Shown: positions 597 to 26,139, counted from the stretch's first letter. The stretch is DNA of 61,564 bases from Candidatus Woesearchaeota archaeon (GCA_014729555.1 WJJT01000036.1:1-61564), one strand, 5' to 3'. Translations and numbers: made by a program. Notes: generated by a model not told the origin, from the sequence alone.

Positions 597-629
597 TTCC
601 GGATTTTTTGAGCAAAAACATATAAAGAC
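597..629 (+). promoter_or_regulatory. Promoter, member of the extended CCGGA...GCAAA..CATATAAAG family
   Basis: TTCCGGATTTTTTGAGCAAAAACATATAAAGAC. The TATA ends 23 nt before the ATG at 650. Confidence 0.55.
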
Positions 630-649
630 TTAAACATGCATTATACCAC

Positions 650-12171: not shown

Positions 12172-12969
12172 TTAATCCTCTTTTTGGCAGACACCAAAAA
12201 ACTCGCACTGGCCAGTTGAATACTTGCAGAGACCAGAAGGCCTCTTAGGGTAATCAGTCATATTATCTGACTCTGTTTTTTGATGAATCAACTCAATCTC
12301 CTTCCTAGCAAACTCAAGTAATTGCTTGTCTACTTTAATAAATTTTGGTTTATCTTTCAAGAAGTAAATACCTGCAAAATCAGGCAGTTCACCATGAAGC
12401 TCTTGATATAATAAAGCATAAATAGCTAACTGCAGCCTGTGATCCCCAAGATTAAAAGAACTGCTTGTCTTGTAATCCATGATGCGAATCTGGTCATTGA
12501 ATTTCTCAACAGCATCAATATAACCACGCACATTGAAAACCTTGCTCAAATAGAACTTTTCTCTGGCTGGAGTTAAAAGCCTGAAACGCTCCTCAAAAGA
12601 GCCTTTTTGAGAGAGCAATTCATTAGAAAAATGCTCAAGCCAGTTAAAAAGCATCAAAAGAGTTTCCTCAAAATAAAACTGGTTCTGGTCAGATGAGATG
12701 TCTAAATTTTTAAGTTTAGGCTTTGCAGCAGCCCACTCCTGAAACAACAACTCCTGCAGCACTGTAGTTAACCTCTGCTTGAAATTATCCAGAGTTAGGT
12801 CTTGCAAAGGAATATCAAAGAATTTCTCCAAAACAGAGTGGGCAATATTACCCCGTATCTGATGAATGTTTGGAAGAGTCTCTAACTGCCGGATATATTG
12901 ATAAAAATACTTTCTAGGACACTGATGATACAGCTTAATAGAACTTGGAGATTGCACCCTTTTTGCCAT
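12172..12969 (-). CDS. Stand-alone Cas4-like PD-(D/E)XK nuclease with a 4-Cys (Fe-S) signature
   Basis: N-terminal Cys in YHQCPRKYFY, GYIDAV, MDYKTS, QLAIYALLY (QxxxY), C-terminal CKYSTGQCEFFGVC. No CRISPR or cas neighbours. Confidence 0.7.
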   Translation of the reverse strand: MAKRVQSPSSIKLYHQCPRKYFYQYIRQLETLPNIHQIRGNIAHSVLEKFFDIPLQDLTLDNFKQRLTTVLQELLFQEWAAAKPKLKNLDISSDQNQFYFEETLLMLFNWLEHFSNELLSQKGSFEERFRLLTPAREKFYLSKVFNVRGYIDAVEKFNDQIRIMDYKTSSSFNLGDHRLQLAIYALLYQELHGELPDFAGIYFLKDKPKFIKVDKQLLEFARKEIELIHQKTESDNMTDYPKRPSGLCKYSTGQCEFFGVCQKED

Positions 12970-13036
12970 TACAAAAGGTTTTTAGGGGTTGTTTATATGT
13001 TTTATGATTATTGAAAACATATGTTTGTAAAGCTTT

Positions 13037-13083
13037 CGGAAAATTCTCAAAAGAGCATATAAAGAACAAAAACAATAAAAAGT
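13037..13083 (+). promoter_or_regulatory. Promoter-bearing direct repeat A (left flank of PIN/RHH cassette 1)
   Basis: CGGAAAATTCTCAAAAGAGCATATAAAGAAC... matches 13752-13797 with 3 substitutions and a 1-nt indel. The TATA ends 22 nt before the ATG at 13086. Confidence 0.7.
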
Positions 13084-13085
13084 CA

Positions 13086-13451
13086 ATGAAAATCTACATT
13101 GATACAAATATTTATCTTGATTATCTTTTAGAAAGAAGGAACAAATATGGAAAAGACCTGAGCAGGCCTGCATTTGAGGTTTTCAAGAGAGCTGCTGCAT
13201 GCGAGTTTCATATTATATTGTCATATCACCTTTTAAACGAATTGCATGCAAATATCAAAGAAAGCGATACATACATGCTCTTGAAATTTCTCAAGAAGAA
13301 ACTCATACTTATAGAGGATGAACAAGGATATAAAGGTGATGAAAAGCATGCAGTTCTTGCAAAAAAAGCCGGAGCAGACTTGATAGTGACAAGAGACAAA
13401 AAACACTTTTGTGATTTTTCAACCAAGGCCGTATTGCCGGAAGAGCTCTGA
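13086..13451 (+). CDS. PIN-domain (VapC-like) nuclease 1
   Basis: MKIYIDTNIYLDY (Asp1), central acidic residues, C-terminal DLIVTRDKKHF. Start chosen at the ATG 22 nt after the TATA. Confidence 0.7.
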   Translation: MKIYIDTNIYLDYLLERRNKYGKDLSRPAFEVFKRAAACEFHIILSYHLLNELHANIKESDTYMLLKFLKKKLILIEDEQGYKGDEKHAVLAKKAGADLIVTRDKKHFCDFSTKAVLPEEL

Positions 13452-13700
13452 AGGAGTCATTTTCTTAAGCTCTGCTTTTGCTTTCTTCTGTTCTGCCTTT
13501 GTGAGCAAACGGCCTTTGCCCCTGAGCATCTCAAGGCCGCGGATTGCTTTCTTTTTCTCGTATTCATCAATGCTTTTCCTTATTGCATCACGGATGAACT
13601 CTGTCATGTTCGCAAACATGCCTGTCTTGACTATCTCATTCATGCGCTTCTTAAGCTCTTTTTCCAACCTTAAATGAACTAATTCTCCCATATGTATCAA
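13419..13700 (-). CDS. Ribbon-helix-helix (CopG-like) protein 1, convergent with PIN 1
   Basis: VHLRLEKELKKRMNEIV....NMTEFIRDAIRKSI is an RHH pattern. Its 3' end overlaps the PIN gene by 33 nt. Confidence 0.7.
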   Translation of the reverse strand: MIHMGELVHLRLEKELKKRMNEIVKTGMFANMTEFIRDAIRKSIDEYEKKKAIRGLEMLRGKGRLLTKAEQKKAKAELKKMTPSELFRQYGLG

Positions 13701-13751
13701 GGGTATACATAAATGATATATAAAGATTTTGGTTTATAGTCGGAAAAAATC

Positions 13752-13797
13752 CGGAAAATTCTCAGAAGAGCATATAAAGAATAAAAACAAAAAAAGT
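13752..13797 (+). promoter_or_regulatory. Promoter-bearing direct repeat B (right flank of cassette 1)
   Basis: Near-identical to repeat A. TATA lies 23 nt before the ATG at 13802. Confidence 0.7.
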
Positions 13798-13801
13798 TTC
13801 T

Positions 13802-14104
13802 ATGAATGAAAAAATGCTCTTGATAACTGCACTGGCTTGCATTATTCTGGGGCTTCCTGTACTGTATATTGCTTCAAAGTTTGTCTCTTCAGATGATCCA
13901 AGAGTTCTAACTGAATTAGTTGGAGTGGTTGAGAGAGTGAGTGCTAAAGAAAAAGTGACAATAATCTCTGTAAAACCAATCACAAACATTCCTGTGGTTG
14001 CATTTGATGATTTGAATGTCAAGAAAGGAGAGAAGATAAAAGTGAAAGGGCAGCTGAAAAGCTATAATGGAAAATTGGAGTTTGTGGCGGATGAACTAAG
14101 ATAG
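13802..14104 (+). CDS. Membrane-anchored OB-fold protein
   Basis: N-terminal TM helix, then VGVVERVS....VKGQLKSYNGKLEF, which is OB-fold-like (tRNA_anti-like). Confidence 0.5.
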   Translation: MNEKMLLITALACIILGLPVLYIASKFVSSDDPRVLTELVGVVERVSAKEKVTIISVKPITNIPVVAFDDLNVKKGEKIKVKGQLKSYNGKLEFVADELR

Positions 14105-14126
14105 TTTTATATATAATGCAAAACCA

Positions 14127-14729
14127 ATGCAATCTATGAAAATATACCTGATAAGGCATGGTGAAACCACAGGAGACATTGAAGACAGATACGGCGGGGA
14201 CTACGAGGACCACCTGACTGAAAAAGGCAAACAGCAGTCAAAAGAATTAAGCCAGAAACTCAAGGGCAAGGGTATTGAAATAGTCTACCACAGCCCGAGA
14301 ATAAGAGCAACTGAAACAGCAAACATTATTGCACAGGCTCTTGGCCTTGATAAAGAGATTGTCCAGGACTTAAGAGAAAGAAATGCTTATGGTATTCTGA
14401 CAGGCCTGACGAAAAAAGAAGCCCTTGAAAAATATCCTGCAGAGATTGCTGAATTAAAAAGAGACAAAAAGCGCCACAAAGTAAAAAATTCTGAGGATTA
14501 TGACCATTTCAAAGAGAGAGTAACTAAAGCACTAGATGAAGTCACAAAAAATGAAAAATACTCAACAATTGCAATCATAACTCACGGAGGGCCAATCAGC
14601 TGCATTGTGCGAGAGATTCTAAAAGCAGGGGAATTGAAAAAGCTGGGCGACTGTGCAATACTTGAACTCAAACGAAAAGATAATAATTACCAGCTTATAA
14701 GCATGGATGGTGCTGAATTAGAGGATTAA
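14127..14729 (+). CDS. Histidine phosphatase (phosphoglycerate mutase family)
   Basis: IYLIRHGETTGD catalytic RHG motif, plus ITHGGPI. Confidence 0.8.
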   Translation: MQSMKIYLIRHGETTGDIEDRYGGDYEDHLTEKGKQQSKELSQKLKGKGIEIVYHSPRIRATETANIIAQALGLDKEIVQDLRERNAYGILTGLTKKEALEKYPAEIAELKRDKKRHKVKNSEDYDHFKERVTKALDEVTKNEKYSTIAIITHGGPISCIVREILKAGELKKLGDCAILELKRKDNNYQLISMDGAELED

Positions 14730-14731
14730 AA

Positions 14732-16108
14732 ATGCAACTTCAATCAACAAATCCAGCCACGGCAGAGATAATTAAAGAATTTGATTCTGCCACAAAAGAA
14801 GAGGTGCAGAATTCCATAAAAAGAGCAAAAGCTGTACAAAAAAACTGGGCTAAACTAGATAAAAAAGAGAGAATCGCGATTATACTGAAATTAAAAGAAG
14901 TATTAGAAAGCAACAAGAATGAACTTTTTTCCATAGTTCAACAAGAAGCAGGCTATCCTCCAGAAGAAACAGAAGCAGTTTTCCTTGACATTCTCGCAGG
15001 AATTGATTATTATTGCGAGAGATACCAAAAAATAAAGAATATTAATTTTCCATTAAGCGATGAAACTCAACCAGAAACAACAGCAGAGGTTCAGCTAATC
15101 CCACAGGGAGTAGTAGGACATATAGGTATCTGGAACTATCCTTTTTGGCAGACAATGATTACTGCAATTCCTGCTTTATTAACAGGAAATACTGTAGTCT
15201 ATAAACCTTCTGAGTATGTATCGCTAACAGGATTAAAAATTGCAGAGTTTATTCACCAAGCAGGTATCCCCGAAGATGTGTATATACCTGTGTTAGGCGG
15301 GTCAGATGTGGGCCGACAAATCGTCTCTTCTGATATTGATGCGGTTGTCTTTACAGGCGGCATTGATGTGGGGAGAGAGATTATAAAAAATGCAGGAATA
15401 AAGCCACTTATTTTAGAGCTAAGCGGAAATGATGCTGCAATTATTTGCAGTGATTGCGACTTAAAGCAAACTGTGAGAGGAATCGCATATGGGGCGTTTC
15501 TTCACTCAGGGCAGTGCTGCATAAGAATCAAGAGAGTCTATGTAGTAAAAAATATTGCTGACAACTTTATTAAAGAATTTGTAGCGTATTCAAAAAAGCT
15601 CAAGATGGGGGAGCAGATAACACCAATAATCAGAGAGGACGCGCGAAAAAACGTGCATAGGGTTGTAGAGGATGCAGTATCACAAGGTGCAGAATTATTA
15701 TTAGGGGGAAATATCCCTAAAGGAAATGGTTTCTATTACCCTGCAACAATACTGCAGATAAAAGATGATAACTTAGAAGTTGTTAAGAAAGAAACCTTTG
15801 GGCCGGTATGTTCAATAAGAGTTGTGGAGAACGAAGATGAAGCAATCCAGCTTGCGAATAGCACAGAGCATGGTCTTGGTGGCACTGTATGGACCCAGAA
15901 TTATAAAAAAGGAAAAGATATTGCTGAGAAACTGGAGACAGGGACTGTGTGGATAAATGATTCTAATATCCCTTTGGTATGCGGTGAATATACCCAAGGA
16001 ATGAAAAGTTCAAGCATTGCCTCTTCACAAGAAAGAATAAGGATGTTTCTCAAGAAAAGAAATATTATTTCGTTTAATTCAAACAAGTGTAGAGATTGGT
16101 GGTTTTAG
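14732..16108 (+). CDS. NAD(P)-dependent aldehyde dehydrogenase family protein
   Basis: WNYPFWQ, KPSE, FTGG...G, ELSGND, catalytic Cys in GQCCIRIKRVYV, KETFGPV. Confidence 0.85.
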   Translation: MQLQSTNPATAEIIKEFDSATKEEVQNSIKRAKAVQKNWAKLDKKERIAIILKLKEVLESNKNELFSIVQQEAGYPPEETEAVFLDILAGIDYYCERYQKIKNINFPLSDETQPETTAEVQLIPQGVVGHIGIWNYPFWQTMITAIPALLTGNTVVYKPSEYVSLTGLKIAEFIHQAGIPEDVYIPVLGGSDVGRQIVSSDIDAVVFTGGIDVGREIIKNAGIKPLILELSGNDAAIICSDCDLKQTVRGIAYGAFLHSGQCCIRIKRVYVVKNIADNFIKEFVAYSKKLKMGEQITPIIREDARKNVHRVVEDAVSQGAELLLGGNIPKGNGFYYPATILQIKDDNLEVVKKETFGPVCSIRVVENEDEAIQLANSTEHGLGGTVWTQNYKKGKDIAEKLETGTVWINDSNIPLVCGEYTQGMKSSSIASSQERIRMFLKKRNIISFNSNKCRDWWF

Positions 16109-16642
16109 ATGCAAGAGATGGAAGTAAAAGTAATTGACATCAACAAAGAAGAGATAATCAAAAAATTATTGGAATTAGGCGCTGAAAAAGTATTTGAGGG
16201 AGACATACAAGCAAGCTCTTATGATTTTGAGGATAACCGATTGGCAAAAGACCACGCATTCATCAGATTAAGGAAAAAAGGAGACAAGACATTCCTGACA
16301 TACAAGAAAAAGATAAATCAAGATTATGCAAAAGTTATGCAAGAGCTAGAGACAGAAGTAAAAGACTTTGATGAGATGCAAAAAATACTTCTTGCAGCTG
16401 GATTAAAGGCTGCAAAGGATCTTGACAGAAAGAAAAGGACATCTTTCCAGATTGATAACATATTGTTTGAGATAGACGAACATGAAAACGTTCCTGCTTA
16501 CATGGAGATAGAAGCTCCTACTTTAGACCTGATAAATGAATATGTTGAGAAGCTGGGGCTTGACAAGGAAAAAGTAAAAACCTGGACAGGAAAAGAACTA
16601 CTGGAGCACTATGGAATCAAAGTTGATTTCATGAGAGTCTGA
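16109..16642 (+). CDS. CYTH-domain protein (CyaB-like class IV cyclase / triphosphatase fold)
   Basis: N-terminal EVKV (ExExK-type), IRLRKKGDK.FLTYKKK, FEIDEH....YMEIE. Confidence 0.7.
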   Translation: MQEMEVKVIDINKEEIIKKLLELGAEKVFEGDIQASSYDFEDNRLAKDHAFIRLRKKGDKTFLTYKKKINQDYAKVMQELETEVKDFDEMQKILLAAGLKAAKDLDRKKRTSFQIDNILFEIDEHENVPAYMEIEAPTLDLINEYVEKLGLDKEKVKTWTGKELLEHYGIKVDFMRV

Positions 16643-16677
16643 AAATCCTCCGGAAAAATCTGGCAAAGGCATATAAA
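16639..16677 (+). promoter_or_regulatory. Promoter-bearing direct repeat C (left flank of PIN/RHH cassette 2)
   Basis: CTGAAAATCCTCCGGAAAAATCTGGCAAAGGCATATAAA is 39/39 identical to 17417-17455. TATA ends 22 nt before the ATG at 16700. Confidence 0.8.
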
Positions 16678-16699
16678 AACAAATTTCTAAAATTAATTC

Positions 16700-17119
16700 A
16701 TGCAAAAATACTATCTTGATGCCTGCATCTGGATTGATTATTTTGAGAACAGGAAAGACAGGTTCAGGCCGCTTGGAGAATGGGCATTAGACCTAATCAA
16801 AAAAATCATTGAAGACGATGCTTTAATTCTTTACTCAGAATTAGTTGAAGAAGAGTTAAGCACAAGATATTCACCAAGAGAGATCAGTGCGATATTAAAT
16901 ATTGTTCCTTCTGAAAAACTTGTTAAGGCAGAAATATCTGACGGCCAAATCAGAGAATCAATGCACATATCTAAACAGTCAAATATTCCCAAAAAAGATG
17001 CATTGCATGCAATACTTGCAAGAGACAATAATGCAGTGCTTGTAACAAGAGACAAACATTTTCAGGAGCTGCAAAAAAGCAACATTATCAAAAAACCAGA
17101 AGAAATTAATCTAGATTAA
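16700..17119 (+). CDS. PIN-domain (VapC-like) nuclease 2
   Basis: YYLDACIWIDY, EEEL, DALHAILA, VLVTRDKHF. Same architecture as PIN 1. Confidence 0.7.
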   Translation: MQKYYLDACIWIDYFENRKDRFRPLGEWALDLIKKIIEDDALILYSELVEEELSTRYSPREISAILNIVPSEKLVKAEISDGQIRESMHISKQSNIPKKDALHAILARDNNAVLVTRDKHFQELQKSNIIKKPEEINLD

Positions 17120-17369
17120 TTCTGTGTTTTTTTGCAATTTTCCGGAATGCAAGCTCTCCTGCCATTTCATCACTCATCCTTGCCTTTCCTTTAAGGCTTC
17201 CTTTCAGGGCAGCAAGTTTTCTCAAGGCTTCTTGTTTTTCCTGCTCTGTCAATTTATGCCTGATAGCGTCCCTGATAAATTCAGTTCTTGTGCTATACAT
17301 GTTCTTCTTTAGACTTTTGTCAAGTGCTTTAAGAAGTTCAGTATCCAGTTTCAAGGTTATTGCTTCCAT
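17106..17369 (-). CDS. Ribbon-helix-helix (CopG-like) protein 2, convergent with PIN 2
   Basis: MEAITLKLDTELLKALDKSL....TRTEFIRDAIRHKL. Overlaps PIN 2 by 14 nt at the 3' ends. The longer TTG-started ORF to 17489 would run through promoter repeat D, so it is unlikely. Confidence 0.7.
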   Translation of the reverse strand: MEAITLKLDTELLKALDKSLKKNMYSTRTEFIRDAIRHKLTEQEKQEALRKLAALKGSLKGKARMSDEMAGELAFRKIAKKHRINLD

Positions 17370-17416
17370 GGTAATACTTAATATATACAAAGTATTTAAG
17401 CCTTTCGTTGGAATTG

Positions 17417-17455
17417 CTGAAAATCCTCCGGAAAAATCTGGCAAAGGCATATAAA
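17417..17455 (+). promoter_or_regulatory. Promoter-bearing direct repeat D (right flank of cassette 2)
   Basis: 39/39 identical to repeat C. TATA ends 22 nt before the ATG at 17478. Confidence 0.8.
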
Positions 17456-17477
17456 GACTATTTTCTGTAAATATTAA

Positions 17478-18674
17478 ATGATATGGCAATTAATACTCGC
17501 AATAACAATAGGAATCATCTGTGGAATAATCACTGGATTGACACCAGGAATACACATAAACTTAGTTTCAGTATTGATTGTTAGCCTTAGCTCAATATTC
17601 CTGGAATACACATCTGCATTATTTTTAGCCACAATCATCATTTCAATGGGGGTAACACACACATTTCTTGACTCAATCCCATCAATATTCCTGGGAGCTC
17701 CTGATTCTGACACAGTAATGGCAGTCCTGCCAGGACACAAGCTGTTGTTTCAGGGCTTGGGCTGGGATGCAGTAAGGCTTACTGTAATTGGTTCTTTGCT
17801 TTGCCTGCTTCTTTGTGTTGCAGTAATACCAGCACTTGTGCTTGTTTTTCCGATTTTATATTCACTGATTAAGAACTATATAGGGTATCTCCTGATTTTA
17901 ATGGTTGGATTCATCATTCTAAAAGACAGCAAAAAGATTTGGGCAATTATCATATTTGTTCTTTCTGGAACACTTGGATTGATTGTTTTAAACTCAGAAA
18001 TATCACAGCCATTGTTTCCAATGCTTTCAGGGATGTTTGGAATATCTGCATTGATTATTTCATTATTCAACAAAGTAGAGGTTCCAACACAAGTAGACGA
18101 AGAATATGTGCAGGTAAGCATCGGAGAATACATCAAAAGCTTGATTGGCGGGGTCTTCTCAGGCAGTTTTGTAGCACTGTTTCCAGGAATAGGGGCTGCA
18201 CAGGCAGCAGCAATGTCAACAGTATTGTTCAAAGTAAAAGAATATGGCTACCTGATTTTAGTGGGAGGCATCAACACTGTGAACTTTATTATCGCACTGG
18301 TCACTGTTTATACTTTAGACAAAGCAAGAAACGGAGCAATAGTTGCAGTAATGGAAATATTAGCAAATATGGATATGGCCAGATTAGTCACATTTGCAGC
18401 AGTTGCATTGATTGCAGGAGGAATTGCCACGATTTTAACATTAAAGATTGCAAAACTTTTTGCATTCATGATAGAGGAAATTGATTACAAGATAATATCC
18501 TTTTTGATTATGTTATTTATCATTGGACTTGCGTTCTACTTATCCGGCTCAACAGGATTACTGGTGTTACTGATAAGCACTGCAATAGGAATAGTGCCAC
18601 AGATAACAGGAGCGTGCAGAAGCAATGCAATGGGGTGCCTTTTACTGCCAGTAATAGTATTTTACCTGCTTTAA
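17478..18674 (+). CDS. Polytopic membrane protein, TctA/DUF112-like
   Basis: About 10 predicted TM helices. GLTPGIHINL and GAPDSDTVMAVLPGH resemble TctA-family motifs. Confidence 0.5.
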   Translation: MIWQLILAITIGIICGIITGLTPGIHINLVSVLIVSLSSIFLEYTSALFLATIIISMGVTHTFLDSIPSIFLGAPDSDTVMAVLPGHKLLFQGLGWDAVRLTVIGSLLCLLLCVAVIPALVLVFPILYSLIKNYIGYLLILMVGFIILKDSKKIWAIIIFVLSGTLGLIVLNSEISQPLFPMLSGMFGISALIISLFNKVEVPTQVDEEYVQVSIGEYIKSLIGGVFSGSFVALFPGIGAAQAAAMSTVLFKVKEYGYLILVGGINTVNFIIALVTVYTLDKARNGAIVAVMEILANMDMARLVTFAAVALIAGGIATILTLKIAKLFAFMIEEIDYKIISFLIMLFIIGLAFYLSGSTGLLVLLISTAIGIVPQITGACRSNAMGCLLLPVIVFYLL

Positions 18675-23594: not shown

Positions 23595-23636
23595 GCGGAA
23601 GATTTGCGGGTTTTTAGAGGATAAACATATAAAAAC
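23595..23636 (+). promoter_or_regulatory. Promoter of the FHA-caspase gene (TTGCGGGTTTTT...CATATAAAA)
   Basis: TATA ends 23 nt before the ATG at 23657. The upstream CGGGTTTTT element also occurs in the kinase promoter. Confidence 0.55.
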
Positions 23637-23656
23637 GAAAAAACAACATTAAAAGC

Positions 23657-24712
23657 ATGCAAGAGATAGCAAGATGGAAAATACGGCCTTCAGCAGTCGG
23701 AGACATATACGGAAAAAACCTTGAGCTGGAGAGAAGAATAATACCAGTATACAAGCCAATACTAATAGGCACATTAGCAGGGCATTTTCAAGACAATAAA
23801 GGAGAGTGGAGCTATGAGCTTCTTGAGATAGATGAAGAGACAAACAACACACTAATTAAGAGAATGCTTCAAAAAAAGCCTCAGCTGGAGAGTGTTGTGA
23901 ACAATGCAGGGTTTCAGCAGGTTCTCAGGATAAATCCCGCCAGATACAGGCACATATCCAGGTTTCATGCAATACTGGGCACAAAACAGGGTAATTTGTA
24001 CATTGCAGACCTAGAGAGCAAGAATGGCATATACACAGGCCTGCCTGCAGAACAAACACGCTCTGCAATACTGCGAGATGGACAGATAATATACTTAGGC
24101 GGCAAAGCAAAAGACAGTGCGCAGATAAAAGTACATGAAGCAATTAGTAAGGCATATGCACTGCTTGTAGGAGTTGATTACAAAAACCAGAACAGCAAAG
24201 TAATTGAAAAAGAGATTTGGCAAATAGATCAAATGCTCAGAAAACTGGGCGTGCCGTATGAATGCAGAACATTAAAACACAGCCATGCAACAAAAGAAAA
24301 CATCACAAGTTATCTGCAAAGAGCAGAAAGCCTGCCAGAAAACAACCTTTTCTTTTTCTTTTGTGGCGCACATGGAAGCAAAGCAGCAATATCGTCAGCA
24401 GATGGAAAGCTTGCAAAACAAGAGCTGGCCGGGCTGCTGAACAGGATACAAGCAAAAAAAATCATGATAATAGACATATGCCATGCCTGGGGCGGCTGGC
24501 AGGAGCTTGACCTTGACAGCGGGCTGTATTTTTTCTCTTCACAAGAAGAGGAAACAGCAAAATGGGGGGGATTCACACCAGGATTAGCAGAAAGAATTGC
24601 AGAATTACTAAACAAAAAAGAGCCAATTGACATGAAACAAATAAGAATCAATGACCTGGCAAGAGCGCACACACCAGCAAAAAAAGGAAACAAGTCAATA
24701 ATACTGTATTAA
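23657..24712 (+). CDS. FHA domain fused to a caspase-like (peptidase C14 fold) domain
   Basis: FHA: ISRFHAIL and ESKNGIYTG. Caspase-like: ALLVGVDYKN (strand 1), FFFCGAHG (catalytic His) and MIIDICHAWGG (catalytic Cys), in the canonical order and spacing. Confidence 0.7.
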   Translation: MQEIARWKIRPSAVGDIYGKNLELERRIIPVYKPILIGTLAGHFQDNKGEWSYELLEIDEETNNTLIKRMLQKKPQLESVVNNAGFQQVLRINPARYRHISRFHAILGTKQGNLYIADLESKNGIYTGLPAEQTRSAILRDGQIIYLGGKAKDSAQIKVHEAISKAYALLVGVDYKNQNSKVIEKEIWQIDQMLRKLGVPYECRTLKHSHATKENITSYLQRAESLPENNLFFFFCGAHGSKAAISSADGKLAKQELAGLLNRIQAKKIMIIDICHAWGGWQELDLDSGLYFFSSQEEETAKWGGFTPGLAERIAELLNKKEPIDMKQIRINDLARAHTPAKKGNKSIILY

Positions 24713-25986
24713 TCAAAAATCTCGCTTATTTTCAGAAAAACATAATGCAAGGCAAGAGTTGCAAACCCTGCAAAAGAACCGCTTCCGATAACACGCGTAT
24801 ACTCATTAAAATAATCAAGAAAAGAATCAGGCAGAATGCCATACACTGCCCCTCCAAGAAGAGTGCCTGTAACAGCACCAGCCACACCAAATGCATTGGC
24901 CTGATCTATAGTCAGATTAATATCCAGCCTCTTGGATTCCAGGCTTACAGCAGCAACATTAAACAAAGTACCTGAAAAAGAGCTAATGCCTGCAGAGCAA
25001 AGAGTCTCAGTAACACTATAACTAAAACCAGTTGCAGTGAAATACAACATAGCAGCAGCAACAGGAGCATACATCATGCATGCAACAATACATCCAATAC
25101 CCCTGCCTGAAACATCATGCTTATCAACCGCAGGCTCTTGTTTTACAGGAGATGCATAAGGCATGTCCCACTCACCAGGTGTCTGGGCTGCCCTGAGTGC
25201 ATTACGCATCTCTGAAGCGCTCTGAAACCTCTCACCAGGATTCCTGCTCCTGCTCTTCAGAATAATATCATCCAGTCTTTTGTCACCAACAGACTCATAA
25301 GTATATAACGGCTCGTCACCAGTAAGCATCTTATAGAGCACAGTACCAACAGAAAAAACATCAGATCTTGCATCTGCACTTCCCTGCATCTGCTCAGGAG
25401 CCATATAAGCAATAGTGCCGACAACCCTGCTCCTCAAGTCTTCATCAATATCCCCAAGACTGTGCTCTAACTCCTTGCCAGCAAGATTAGGATTAGTGAT
25501 TGTTGCCCAGGAACTCCTTATTTTTCTCTTGTAATCCTTGAACAAGCCAAAATCAGCAAGCTTTGCAAAACCTTTTTTATCAAACAAGATATTCTCAGGC
25601 TTGATATCCCTATGAATAATACCCCTGCTATGCGCGTAATCCAGGCCCTTCAGGACATTAACCGCAATATCAACAGCAGCGCCCTTTTCAAGTGCAGTGA
25701 CATTAACCCTGTCAGCAAGGCTTTTGCTGCACAACTCCATTTCAATATAATTTCTGCCCTCATCTTCACCACAGCTATACACTTCAACAATATTAGGGTG
25801 GCCTTTAAGCCTCATCAAGACCTCTGCCTCTTTATCTGCAGAAGGGTTTGGCTTTGTAAATACCTTGCAGGCAACCTTTTTGCAGGCAGTCATGCTTAAG
25901 GCTTCATAAACATCACTAAAAGCACCCCTTCCAATACGCTCATCAAGCGCGCAGTTTCCTATCATCTTTCCAGACAAGTTTTCCAT
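24709..25986 (-). CDS. Hanks-type Ser/Thr protein kinase with a C-terminal multi-TM domain
   Basis: GRGAFSDV glycine loop, VACKV, HRDIKPENILF, DFG, AYMAPE, then about 130 aa of hydrophobic helices. 4-nt 3' overlap with the FHA-caspase gene. Confidence 0.9.
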   Translation of the reverse strand: MENLSGKMIGNCALDERIGRGAFSDVYEALSMTACKKVACKVFTKPNPSADKEAEVLMRLKGHPNIVEVYSCGEDEGRNYIEMELCSKSLADRVNVTALEKGAAVDIAVNVLKGLDYAHSRGIIHRDIKPENILFDKKGFAKLADFGLFKDYKRKIRSSWATITNPNLAGKELEHSLGDIDEDLRSRVVGTIAYMAPEQMQGSADARSDVFSVGTVLYKMLTGDEPLYTYESVGDKRLDDIILKSRSRNPGERFQSASEMRNALRAAQTPGEWDMPYASPVKQEPAVDKHDVSGRGIGCIVACMMYAPVAAAMLYFTATGFSYSVTETLCSAGISSFSGTLFNVAAVSLESKRLDINLTIDQANAFGVAGAVTGTLLGGAVYGILPDSFLDYFNEYTRVIGSGSFAGFATLALHYVFLKISEIFD

Positions 25987-26004
25987 GAAAAAACGTCTGG
26001 TTTT

Positions 26005-26034
26005 ATTCTTTATATGCCTTTGCCAGAAAAACCC
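26005..26034 (-). promoter_or_regulatory. Promoter of the kinase gene (CGGGTTTTTCTGGCAAAGGCATATAAAGA on the minus strand)
   Basis: Shares 21 identical nt (TCTGGCAAAGGCATATAAAGA) with repeat D at 17437-17457. TATA lies 23 nt before the ATG. Confidence 0.6.
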
Positions 26035-26139
26035 GAAATATTTGCGAAAAAACTGAAAATCTGAAAACTTGCCATCAGAGCGAAATATTTATATAGAAAA
26101 TAAATAGAGTTGAGTATAATATAGAAAAGAGATGAATAA

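What the first reader, a model, noticed from the sequence alone, without database searches (positions are those of the whole stretch)
13037..17455. Two convergent, 3'-overlapping PIN/RHH cassettes, each flanked by direct repeats that carry a complete promoter
Cassette 1 is repeat A (13037-13083), PIN(+), RHH(-), repeat B (13752-13797). Cassette 2 is repeat C (16639-16677), PIN(+), RHH(-), repeat D (17417-17455). C and D are 39/39 identical. A and B differ by 3 substitutions and one indel over about 47 nt. Each repeat contains a TATA box 22-23 nt before an ATG. The left copy therefore drives the PIN gene and the right copy drives the resident downstream gene. Classical VapBC operons are co-directional with the antitoxin first. 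Here toxin and RHH genes converge and overlap by 33 and 14 nt, which implies antisense or transcriptional-interference coupling. The flanking repeats look like a target (promoter) duplication made on cassette insertion, or a recombination-prone cassette system.
Basis: partly seen in the sequence, partly recalled or inferred. Interest (0 to 1): 0.7.

Follow-up and report, generated by a model that had tools for sequence, protein, structure and literature searches.

The report
Promoter-bracketed convergent PIN/RHH toxin cassettes
Two small toxin-antitoxin-like gene pairs in a Woesearchaeota (DPANN archaeon) chromosome have an unusual tail-to-tail layout, and each sits between two copies of one special promoter, and related genomes show these pairs are gained and lost at exactly those promoter copies.

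Summary
PIN1 (13086-13451,+)/RHH1 (13419-13691,-) and PIN2 (16700-17119,+)/RHH2 (17106-17369,-) converge and overlap by 33 and 14 nt. Each pair is bracketed by direct repeats carrying CATATAAA 22-23 nt before an ATG.

The repeats are not private to the cassettes. They belong to a lineage-specific promoter family, P: two CGRAAA boxes, a spacer and CATATAAA, with fixed CGG-N16-TATA spacing. The window holds 7 copies against 0 expected, three of them at unrelated genes. Any two members are about 60-90% identical. The flanking pairs are still the most similar non-orthologous pairs.

Eight related haplotypes and an outgroup show both sites were ancestrally empty (PD-(D/E)XK | one P | OB^TctA). Cassettes are present or absent independently. 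Empty sites carry one P copy, which in one relative is a left/right chimera. The core of the flanking copies evolves in concert.

The tail-to-tail PIN/RHH layout held in all 19 modules inspected, from a family of at least 788 proteins in Woese-/Nanoarchaeota.

Best reading: VapBC-like modules with separate promoters, inserted at the leaderless ATG. PIN captures the resident promoter and a trailing P copy re-drives the displaced gene. P x P recombination causes loss and homogenisation. Toxicity, neutralisation and antisense coupling are untested. This is a new variant of a known kind.

The parts
13017..13085 (+). Promoter copy A (P family). CGG is at 13037 and CATATAAA at 13056-13063, ending 22 nt before the PIN1 ATG. 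This is the ancestral resident promoter of the OB gene, now driving PIN1.
   Evidence: Its TATA-to-ATG segment matches the single OB promoter of empty-site relatives L039 and L129.
13086..13451 (+). PIN1, a 121-aa PIN-domain (VapC-like) putative toxin, probably leaderless.
   Evidence: Pfam PIN_3 at 32 bits against a cutoff of 27. The acidic residues D, E, D and TRD are conserved. NCBI record MBD3304149.1.
13419..13691 (-). RHH1, a 90-aa ribbon-helix-helix protein with a roughly 45-aa C-terminal tail. It is the putative antitoxin. It converges on PIN1 with a 33-nt 3' overlap.
   Evidence: Pfam RHH_1 at 23.4 bits against 20.5. It is paired with a PIN1-type gene in every relative.
13692..13739 (-). 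RHH1's own promoter. The TATA box is TTTATATA on the minus strand at 13717-13724, about 25 nt before the ATG. A 7-nt inverted repeat (13691-13697 / 13705-13711) is a candidate operator.
   Evidence: The role is inferred from position.
13740..13801 (+). Promoter copy B. Box 1 is at 13740-13751, CGG at 13752 and CATATAAA at 13771-13778, 23 nt before the OB ATG. It is a chimera: the upstream flank is orthologous to B of relatives, while the core and TATA-to-ATG segment are of the A type.
   Evidence: Upstream flank: 26/29 against L002_B. TATA-to-ATG segment: 10/23 against L002_B but 17-18/23 against A-type copies.
13802..14104 (+). Resident small membrane/OB-fold gene (100 aa). In the ancestral state it formed an operon with TctA.
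   Evidence: OB abuts or overlaps TctA in more than 20 distant relatives.
14105..16642 (+). His_Phos, aldehyde dehydrogenase and CYTH genes. This variable block is inserted between OB and TctA relative to the ancestral junction.
   Evidence: The block is absent in L001-L006, L128 and L129. L007 has only the aldehyde dehydrogenase. L037-L039 have a 228-aa minus-strand gene instead.
16639..16699 (+). Promoter copy C. CGG is at 16651 and CATATAAA at 16670-16677, 22 nt before the PIN2 ATG. The CYTH stop codon TGA lies inside its first box.
16700..17119 (+). PIN2, a 139-aa PIN-domain putative toxin.
   Evidence: Pfam PIN at 38.5 bits against 23.6. It belongs to a family of at least 788 proteins at E<=1e-5.
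17106..17369 (-). RHH2, an 87-aa RHH putative antitoxin. It converges on PIN2 with a 14-nt overlap that lies inside an 18-nt perfect palindrome (17104-17121).
17370..17416 (-). RHH2's own promoter with an inverted repeat (17373-17384 / 17385-17396), a candidate operator.
   Evidence: The region is conserved next to RHH2 in L007, L037 and L040.
17417..17477 (+). Promoter copy D. CGG is at 17429 and CATATAAA at 17448-17455, 22 nt before the TctA ATG. Its boxes, spacer and TATA are 39/39 identical to C. Its TATA-to-ATG segment is orthologous to D of L040 (21/22).
17478..18674 (+). Resident TctA-family membrane gene, displaced from its ancestral OB-TctA operon.
600..649 (+). P-family promoter without a cassette, upstream of the 23S_rRNA_IVP gene.
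23607..23656 (+). P-family promoter without a cassette, upstream of the FHA-domain gene.
25987..26035 (-). P-family promoter without a cassette, upstream of the Ser/Thr kinase gene. It shares CTGGCAAAGGCATATAAAGA with C/D.

Best explanation
The region holds two paralogous VapBC-like modules, each a PIN nuclease toxin plus a ribbon-helix-helix antitoxin. They belong to a DPANN-wide family whose hallmark is a tail-to-tail gene pair with overlapping 3' ends and two separate promoters.

How each module is built:
- PIN is read, probably as a leaderless mRNA, from a composite promoter P. P consists of two CGRAAA boxes about 12 nt apart, an 8-nt BRE-like spacer and CATATAAA, ending 22-23 nt before the ATG.
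- RHH is read from its own ordinary TATA promoter, which carries a cassette-specific inverted repeat (presumed autoregulation).

How the cassettes sit in this clade:
- P is a dispersed promoter family of about 70 bp.
- A cassette is inserted exactly between a resident P copy and the ATG of the resident gene. PIN therefore captures the resident promoter.
- A second P copy at the far end of the cassette, just beyond the RHH promoter, re-drives the displaced gene. This is why each cassette is bracketed by direct repeats.
- The two copies then recombine. This homogenises their cores (C=D 39/39; B converted to the A type). It can also delete the cassette and leave one hybrid promoter. Re-insertion by the same route is possible.

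Shown: the anatomy, the family-wide layout, the presence/absence polymorphism, the polarity (insertions), the chimeric promoters and the concerted evolution of the core.

Inferred: promoter function, leaderless starts, RHH neutralising PIN, the recombination mechanism (homologous, with no dedicated recombinase), and any antisense effect of the overlapping transcripts.
For: Domains and paralogy: with catalytic D7/E52/D100/TRD conserved.

Tail-to-tail layout:
- It holds in 19/19 modules.
- These include distant family members from seven further contigs, a third cassette in L040 and a tandem pair in L127.

P family:
- CGG-N16-CATATAAA occurs 7 times in the window against 0 expected.
- A 34-member alignment gives the consensus tcGaAAAtcTTcCGGAAAATTCT.G.AAAagCATATAAAGA.
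- The strict pattern is found in only two related Woesearchaeota genomes (6 and 3 copies) plus scattered single hits elsewhere.
- In those relatives it precedes three more PIN genes and a YafQ/RelE-type operon.

Polarity:
- Outgroup L129 is PD-(D/E)XK(-) | one P copy | OB^TctA.
- More than 20 distant relatives have OB abutting TctA.

Patchy presence:
- Cassette 1 is present in the window, L001-6, L128, L037 and L040, and absent in L039, L007 and L129.
- Cassette 2 is present in the window, L007, L037 and L040, and absent in L001-6, L128, L038, L039 and L129.

Chimeric promoters:
- The single L007 promoter matches L040_P1 in the upstream flank (25/28) and the B type in the TATA-to-ATG segment (17/23, against 9/23 for P1).
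- Window B matches L002_B in the upstream flank (26/29) but the A type in the TATA-to-ATG segment.
- Window C and D are 31/31 identical in boxes plus spacer, while each TATA-to-ATG segment follows its own orthologue (22/22 and 21/22).

Quartet test: sites supporting orthology lie in the outer flanks, and sites supporting within-genome similarity lie in the core.

Ranking: C-D ranks first of 528 family pairs, and A-B ranks third, behind two orthologous pairs.

Partner coupling: the C-terminal tail of the partner is conserved with the PIN subtype. The L011 partner is 39% identical to RHH1 over 57 aa, and its PIN is 38% identical to PIN1.
Against: - There is no expression, toxicity or binding data.
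- PIN and RHH score far below NCBIfam VapC/VapB cut-offs (18 against 80; 23 against 60).
- The family background identity of P is high, so part of the flanking similarity is simply shared promoter consensus.
- The right-hand copy at site 1 differs from the left copy in most relatives, so a clean duplication-on-insertion signature is absent.
- The way the first insertion was made is unknown. At the promoter-less OB^TctA junction, P x P homologous recombination cannot explain it.
- Distant family members mostly lack flanking promoter repeats, so bracketing is a clade-specific feature and not intrinsic to the module.
- Oligo-T runs after the stop codons are frequent but not universal, and they are expected by chance in an AT-rich, Lys-rich context.
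Confidence: 0.6

Rival explanations
1. This is the first reader's main reading: a classical mobile-element insertion. A transposase or integrase inserted each cassette into a promoter and duplicated the target, so the flanking repeats are target-site duplications.
For: Direct repeats flank both cassettes. Empty sites hold a single copy. In L037 the two copies around cassette 2 share an identical 30-nt stretch that includes the TATA-to-ATG segment. A distant cassette (L119) is flanked by an unrelated 58-nt direct repeat at 84% identity.
Against: - No transposase or integrase was found among 40 window proteins scanned, or among the genes next to the cassettes in any haplotype.
- There are no terminal inverted repeats.
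- The repeat length and the identical tract differ between lineages.
- At site 1 the right copy differs from the resident promoter in L002, L037 and L128.
- The ancestral site 2 had no promoter to duplicate.
- The same element occurs at three cassette-free genes in the window.
Confidence: 0.12
2. A purely regulatory reading. The repeats are simply members of one regulon's promoter class, kept similar by selection for the same transcription factor. They play no part in cassette gain or loss, which happens by ordinary indels.
For: P copies precede unrelated genes: 23S_rRNA_IVP, FHA, kinase, OB and TctA. Any two members are 60-90% identical. The CGG-N16-TATA-22 nt-ATG geometry is strictly conserved.
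Against: - The spacer and core variants are specific to each pair and are not genome-wide (A/B CAAAAGAG/CAGAAGAG; C/D GGCAAAGG).
- Flanking copies are more alike than their orthologues in the core.
- L007's single promoter joins the flank of one copy to the TATA-to-ATG segment of another.
- All presence/absence breakpoints fall within P copies, between the upstream flank and the ATG.
Confidence: 0.18
3. The two genes are not a toxin-antitoxin pair. RHH is an independent small transcription regulator (CdrS/aCcr1/NikR-like) and PIN is a housekeeping RNase. They are neighbours only because the genome is compact.
For: RHH1 and RHH2 give weak NCBIfam hits to CdrS, aCcr1 and the NikR N-terminal domain. 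The genes are on opposite strands with separate promoters, unlike known type II TA systems (TADB 3.0 text).
Against: - The two genes co-occur strictly and keep a 3' overlap in 19/19 modules, across PIN identities down to about 26%.
- They are gained and lost together.
- The RHH carries a roughly 45-aa C-terminal tail whose type follows the PIN subtype.
- Modules sit next to ParE/MazE, HEPN/NTase and further PIN/RHH modules in other genomes.
- Their patchy distribution is not that of housekeeping genes.
Confidence: 0.1

Closest known systems
VapBC type II toxin-antitoxin systems (PIN-domain VapC with an RHH/AbrB-type VapB)
   Same: The toxin has a PIN domain with the conserved acidic residues. 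The partner has an N-terminal ribbon-helix-helix domain and a C-terminal tail. The genes are small, patchily distributed and often clustered with other TA modules. The nearest solved relatives by profile are VapC proteins (7by2, 6a7v; E about 1e-3).
   Different: The genes are on opposite strands and tail-to-tail with overlapping 3' ends. Each has its own promoter, so there is no antitoxin-first operon. [quoted passage not shown] Scores are far below the curated VapB/VapC model cut-offs.
Type I toxin-antitoxin loci with convergent, 3'-overlapping antisense RNAs (for example Bacillus subtilis yonT/SR6, PMC5848175; txpA/RatA, from my own knowledge)
   Same: Toxin and antidote are transcribed convergently with overlapping 3' ends, so the two transcripts should be partly complementary.
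   Different: Here the antisense partner encodes a DNA-binding protein of 87-90 aa, and the toxin is a 121-139-aa nuclease and not a small membrane peptide. No RNA-level effect has been shown.
Integron gene cassettes, including TA cassettes of chromosomal superintegrons (from my own knowledge)
   Same: Small one- or two-gene units are gained and lost at fixed positions. They form arrays (three cassettes in L040) and are bounded by a repeated element.
   Different: There is no integrase and no attC-type imperfect inverted-repeat site. The repeated element is a complete promoter in direct orientation, and each cassette brings its own transcription signals.
Short dispersed repeats that carry outward-facing promoters (for example Neisseria Correia elements or IS-borne promoters, from my own knowledge)
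   Same: A sequence of about 70 bp is repeated around the genome and supplies a promoter to whatever gene lies downstream.
   Different: P has no terminal inverted repeats or transposase. It is fused at a fixed distance to a leaderless ATG. It also appears to be the native promoter of conserved genes, because the outgroup OB gene has it.

Membership tests
VapBC (type II TA) | The toxin is a PIN-domain protein with conserved acidic active-site residues. | tested here: met
   Pfam PIN/PIN_3 above the gathering score for both proteins. D7, E52, D100 and T116-R117 are invariant in the 9-sequence alignment.
VapBC (type II TA) | The antitoxin has an N-terminal DNA-binding domain (RHH, AbrB, PhD or HTH) and a C-terminal toxin-binding extension. 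| tested here: met
   RHH_1 above the gathering score for both proteins, at residues 4-41 of 87-90 aa. The C-terminal tail is conserved within each subtype. The binding function of the tail is inferred.
VapBC (type II TA) | The two genes are tandem on the same strand in one operon, usually antitoxin first. | tested here: not met
   The genes are convergent with a 6-33-nt 3' overlap in 19/19 modules. Same-strand tandem genes are the typical arrangement according to TADB 3.0.
VapBC (type II TA) | The proteins match curated VapC/VapB family models. | tested here: not met
   NCBIfam TA_toxin_VapC scores 18 bits against a cutoff of 80. TA_anti_VapB_Sulfo scores 23.1 and 16.7 bits against 60.
VapBC (type II TA) | The toxin inhibits growth and is neutralised by direct binding of the antitoxin. 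| not testable with these tools
   This needs expression and interaction assays.
VapBC (type II TA) | The antitoxin, or the complex, represses its own promoter through an operator. | tested here: inconclusive
   Cassette-specific inverted repeats lie between the RHH TATA box and the ATG (13691-13711; 17373-17396). Similar palindromes occur in distant members. No binding data exist.
Type I TA (antisense RNA antitoxin) | The toxin is a small hydrophobic peptide, and the antitoxin is a non-coding antisense RNA. | tested here: not met
   The toxin is a 121-139-aa PIN protein and the antisense gene encodes an RHH protein. No Rfam family matches in 12900-17600.
Integron gene cassette | An IntI tyrosine recombinase and attC recombination sites bound the cassettes. 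| tested here: not met
   No integrase was found among 40 window proteins or among neighbours in related loci. The bounding repeats are direct promoter copies without attC-like inverted-repeat structure.
Transposon / IS insertion with target-site duplication | A transposase, terminal inverted repeats, and a fixed-length exact duplication of the target. | tested here: not met
   There is no transposase and no terminal inverted repeats. The identical tract varies (39 nt in the window C/D, 30 nt in L037 C/D, 27 nt in L002 A/B), and the copies are chimeric.

The most novel reading that the evidence does not exclude
PIN/RHH modules of this clade are 'promoter-hopping' selfish cassettes. They move between members of a dispersed family of leaderless promoters by recombination at the promoter itself. 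This may go through an excised circle carrying one hybrid P copy. On insertion the toxin gene takes over the resident promoter, and the cassette donates a replacement copy so that the host gene stays expressed. The tail-to-tail layout, with each gene's Lys-rich C-terminus encoding the oligo-T terminator of its partner, would couple toxin and antitoxin expression at the RNA level. Together this would be a protein-protein TA class that current TA-finding pipelines cannot detect.
Probability: 0.3. Interest if true: 0.8.

Novelty: new variant of a known kind. Interest (0 to 1): 0.62.

Why it matters
TA prediction pipelines assume that protein-protein TA genes lie in tandem on one strand. A large, consistently tail-to-tail PIN/RHH family in DPANN archaea would therefore be missed systematically. 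It would also need a different control logic: separate promoters, and possibly antisense coupling in place of translational coupling or conditional cooperativity.

The promoter bracketing shows how a selfish two-gene module can insert in front of a host gene without silencing it, by borrowing one promoter and supplying another. It also gives a concrete, sequence-defined example of dispersed promoter copies acting as recombination substrates that reshape gene order in very small genomes.

The P element itself is a strongly conserved archaeal promoter architecture with an upstream tandem-box site. It marks a small regulon (TA toxins, FHA/kinase signalling genes, a transporter) and offers a handle for finding its regulator in an uncultivated lineage.

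Tried and rejected
1. Generic promoter consensus. I read the upstream regions of all 75 called genes. Most have TTTATATA or TTTAAATA boxes without CGG boxes, and only 7 carry P. P is therefore a subclass, not the generic promoter. Its high internal identity does weaken the 'duplication' argument.

2. Transposase or integrase. None was found among the 40 window proteins scanned or among neighbours in relatives. About 35 mostly small ORFs of the window were not scanned.

3. Known RNA families in 12900-17600. None matched.

4. Carriage on plasmids, phages or viral contigs. PIN2 gave no tblastn hit in PLSDB or INPHARED, and no confirmed hit in IMG/VR.

5. RHH as the factor that binds the P boxes. 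I rejected this as the main idea by inference. P is shared by cassettes whose RHH beta-strand residues differ, and each RHH promoter has its own distinct inverted repeat.

6. Domain swap in the L011 partner. It looked as if it lacked the RHH domain, but the orthologue in L124 keeps a weak RHH match. L011 is more likely N-terminally truncated or has a mis-called start.

7. A tRNA next to an orphan P copy in L013. The sequence looks tRNA-like by eye, but ARAGORN and Rfam find nothing.

8. Literature. I found no description of convergent PIN/RHH TA modules or of a Woesearchaeota promoter motif. The held library is incomplete, so this is not proof of absence.

9. The window's own genome is not among the GTDB representatives scanned, so I could not make a genome-wide census of P in the source organism.


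Full report
**Source.** The window is a 61,564-nt contig of a Candidatus Woesearchaeota (DPANN) MAG. The proteins of the region are MBD3304149-MBD3304157, and NCBI labels PIN1 and RHH1 'hypothetical protein'. The surrounding genes are chromosomal housekeeping genes: ribosomal proteins L1 and L10, undecaprenyl-diphosphate synthase, TsaD, Lon and an RNA methyltransferase.

**Observation.**
- PIN1 is 13086-13451 (+) and RHH1 is 13419-13691 (-). They overlap by 33 nt.
- PIN2 is 16700-17119 (+) and RHH2 is 17106-17369 (-). They overlap by 14 nt.
- All four proteins pass the Pfam gathering scores for PIN/PIN_3 or RHH_1.
- The two PINs (26% identity) and the two RHHs (45%) are paralogues.
- C and D are 39/39 identical. 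A and B differ by 2 substitutions and one indel.
- CATATAAA ends 22-23 nt before the ATG in all four copies.
- The shared core has 4 hits in the window and none in 100 shuffles.

**What the repeats are.**
- All four copies are related to each other. They share a fixed geometry, CGG-N16-CATATAAA, which occurs 7 times in the window against 0 expected.
- The other three copies lie before a 23S_rRNA_IVP gene (600+), an FHA gene (23607+) and a Ser/Thr kinase gene (26035-).
- Thirty-four copies from the window and relatives give the consensus tcGaAAAtcTTc CGGAAAATTCT.G.AAAag CATATAAA GA... This is two CGRAAA boxes about 12 nt apart, an A-rich spacer next to the TATA box, the TATA box, and then 22-23 nt to an ATG.
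- That distance places the expected archaeal start site at or near the ATG, so these genes are probably leaderless. This is an inference from the known TATA-to-TSS spacing in archaea.
- Most other promoters in the window have ordinary TTTATATA or TTTAAATA boxes without the CGG boxes. I call the special class P.
- A scan of one genome per GTDB species with the strict pattern found it repeatedly only in two related Woesearchaeota MAGs (6 and 3 copies). It also found 19 single hits in unrelated organisms, about the number expected by chance.
- In those MAGs, P precedes three more PIN genes of the same family and a YafQ/RelE-type operon, as well as loci with no obvious ORF.
- P is therefore a clade-specific promoter class. 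It is enriched at TA toxins but not exclusive to them.
- Any two members are typically 60-90% identical. The median is 27/39 over boxes plus TATA, and unrelated pairs reach 35/39.
- C-D (39/39) ranks first of 528 pairs. A-B (41/46) ranks third, behind two orthologous pairs.

**Comparative genomics.** Exact-protein look-ups and a metagenome scan with a TctA alignment gave eight haplotypes of this locus in close relatives (TctA 83-94% identical), an outgroup, and about 70 distant loci.
- *Ancestral state.* In the outgroup L129 (TctA 71%) the order is Lon(-), glycosyltransferase, PD-(D/E)XK(-), one P promoter, then OB overlapping TctA. In more than 20 distant relatives OB abuts or overlaps TctA. 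Both cassette sites were therefore ancestrally empty, and OB-TctA was an operon with no internal promoter.
- *Cassette 1* is present in the window, L001-L006, L128, L037 and L040. It is absent in L039 (PD-(D/E)XK | one P | OB) and in L007.
- *Cassette 2* is present in the window, L007, L037 and L040. It is absent in L001-L006 and L128 (OB^TctA). It is also absent in L038 and L039 (OB | 228-aa minus-strand gene | one P | TctA).
- *L040* has three cassettes with a P copy at every junction: P-PIN1-RHH1-P-PIN3-RHH3-P-OB-P-PIN2-RHH2-P-TctA.
- *The OB/TctA junction* is a hot spot with at least six different fillings.

**Junction anatomy** (alignments; segment identities).
- *Site 1, left copy.* The left copy (A) is the resident promoter. 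Its upstream flank and its TATA-to-ATG segment match the single promoter of L039 and L129.
- *Site 1, right copy.* The right copy (B) in L002, L128, L037 and L040 has a different TATA-to-ATG segment (GATAATTTACAG...). It was therefore not copied from the target. It belongs to the inserted DNA, next to the RHH promoter.
- *Window B is a chimera.* Its upstream flank is orthologous to B (26/29 against L002_B). Its core and TATA-to-ATG segment are of the A type (10/23 against L002_B; 17-18/23 against A-type copies). This indicates gene conversion from A.
- *The single L007 OB promoter is also a chimera.* It joins the upstream flank of L040's first copy (25/28) to a B-type TATA-to-ATG segment (17/23 against L002_B; 9/23 against L040_P1). 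That is what deletion of the intervening cassettes by recombination between P copies would leave.
- *Site 2.* The single promoter of L038 matches L037's left copy upstream (20/29 against 7/29). It matches both L037 copies downstream. The two L037 copies share an identical 30-nt stretch.
- *Window C and D.* They are identical over boxes, spacer and TATA (31/31 plus 8/8). Each keeps the TATA-to-ATG segment of its own orthologue in L040 (22/22 and 21/22).
- *Quartet counts.* Sites supporting orthology lie in the outer flanks. Sites supporting within-genome similarity lie in the core. The flanking copies recombine with each other.

**The module itself.**
- A profile of nine PINs finds 788 proteins at E<=1e-5, named as Woesearchaeota, Nanoarchaeota or 'archaeon' where a source gives a name.
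- Seven distant members were fetched with context. All have a partner gene of 72-92 aa on the opposite strand. It carries an RHH Pfam hit in most places and no Pfam hit in L124, L118, L126 and one of the two L127 modules. It overlaps the PIN 3' end by 8-30 nt.
- With the close relatives this makes 19 of 19 modules convergent.
- Partner subtype follows PIN subtype.
- Modules sit beside ParE/MazE and HEPN/NTase modules, and next to a second PIN/RHH pair, in other genomes.
- Each RHH gene has its own TATA box about 25 nt before its ATG and a cassette-specific inverted repeat there.
- Oligo-T runs of at least 5 lie within 5-25 nt after the PIN stop in about two thirds of modules. A similar share have one after the RHH stop on the other strand. 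These runs are often encoded by the partner's conserved Lys-Lys codons (KKPEEL and AKK). If they terminate transcription, as oligo-T does in archaea, the two mRNAs end inside each other's coding region. This is suggestive only, because such runs are common in AT-rich DNA.
- Flanking promoter repeats are mostly absent from distant members. L119 has an unrelated 58-nt flanking repeat and L121 a weak 19-nt one. Where the next gene is on the other strand, the right end keeps only the boxes (L011, L124) or nothing (L022).

**Interpretation.**
- The pair is best read as a VapBC-like toxin-antitoxin module with a non-canonical tail-to-tail, two-promoter design.
- In this clade the module lies between a resident P promoter and its leaderless gene, and it carries a second P copy that keeps the displaced gene expressed.
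- The two copies are substrates for recombination, which homogenises them and removes cassettes.
- How the first insertion is made is not resolved. This is especially so at the promoter-less OB^TctA junction, and at site 1, where the junction lies at the ATG and not in the core.
- No recombinase is associated.

**Comparison with known systems.**
- The module is not a member of VapBC as usually defined, because the operon criterion and the curated model scores fail. It probably works like one.
- It shares convergent 3'-overlapping transcription with some type I systems, but both products are proteins.
- It resembles integron cassettes in its array behaviour, but it lacks an integrase and attC.

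**Limits.**
- Everything on function is inferred.
- The source genome could not be surveyed as a whole.
- About half of the window's small ORFs were not scanned for domains.
- The literature search covered only the held open-access library.

Noticed in passing
L001 11013-20366 and L003 (Yap200.bin2.134, JAHWHZ010000002.1): TctA is cut to 285 aa. It is followed by a block of small ORFs with a serine resolvase (PF00239) and a D5_N/DUF5906 primase. The otherwise near-identical L002 has the full 398-aa gene and the normal downstream genes. This looks like an integrated plasmid or virus inside TctA.
   Followed up: no
L013 4592-4830 versus L025 2559-3176: At syntenic positions upstream of a convergent ftsZ, L025 has a P promoter driving a 79-aa + 79-aa YafQ/RelE-type pair. 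L013 has the P promoter followed by no ORF. Instead it has a tRNA-like sequence (GCCGGCG...CGCCGGC) preceded by a partial copy of that sequence's 5' part. ARAGORN and Rfam find no RNA gene there.
   Followed up: partly
window 17104-17121: An 18-nt perfect palindrome (AATTAATCT|AGATTAATT) spans the PIN2/RHH2 overlap, so both proteins end in INLD. The palindrome is not conserved in L037, L040 or L007.
   Followed up: partly
L119 2887-2944 and 3732-3789: A distant PIN/RHH cassette is flanked by a 58-nt direct repeat (84% identical) unrelated to P. The right copy lies at the 3' end of a ParE gene, so there it is not a promoter for a downstream gene.
   Followed up: no
L127 1-3181 (GCA_016928115.1): Two PIN/RHH convergent modules lie in tandem directly after a nucleotidyltransferase/HEPN pair, forming a small TA island. 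Each junction has a CGGAA-type box but a different TATA box.
   Followed up: partly
L125 623-3229: A 157-aa family member with a convergent RHH lies two genes from a Sigma70_r2/r4 protein. The contig may therefore be bacterial, which would mean transfer outside archaea.
   Followed up: no
window 36628-37462: Another convergent, overlapping pair (32 nt): a 163-aa ORF with no Pfam hit (+) and a 124-aa HTH protein (-). Neither is a PIN or an RHH.
   Followed up: partly
window 23607-26035: The FHA gene and the Ser/Thr kinase gene converge and overlap by 4 nt. Each is driven from a P-class promoter at the outer end. The arrangement is conserved in L002 and L128.
   Followed up: no
L007 2208-2621 versus window 16700-17119: PIN2 of L007 is only 47% identical to the window's PIN2, although RHH2 is 81% identical. 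The first roughly 30 residues and the C-terminus are nearly identical, while the middle is replaced. This suggests a mosaic or recombinant toxin gene.
   Followed up: no
window 16640-16642 and L040 7164-7166: The stop codons of two different upstream genes (CYTH in the window, OB in L040) are the TGA inside the first box of promoter copy C (CTGAAAATCC). The cassette's left promoter copy therefore abuts unrelated genes at the same nucleotide.
   Followed up: partly
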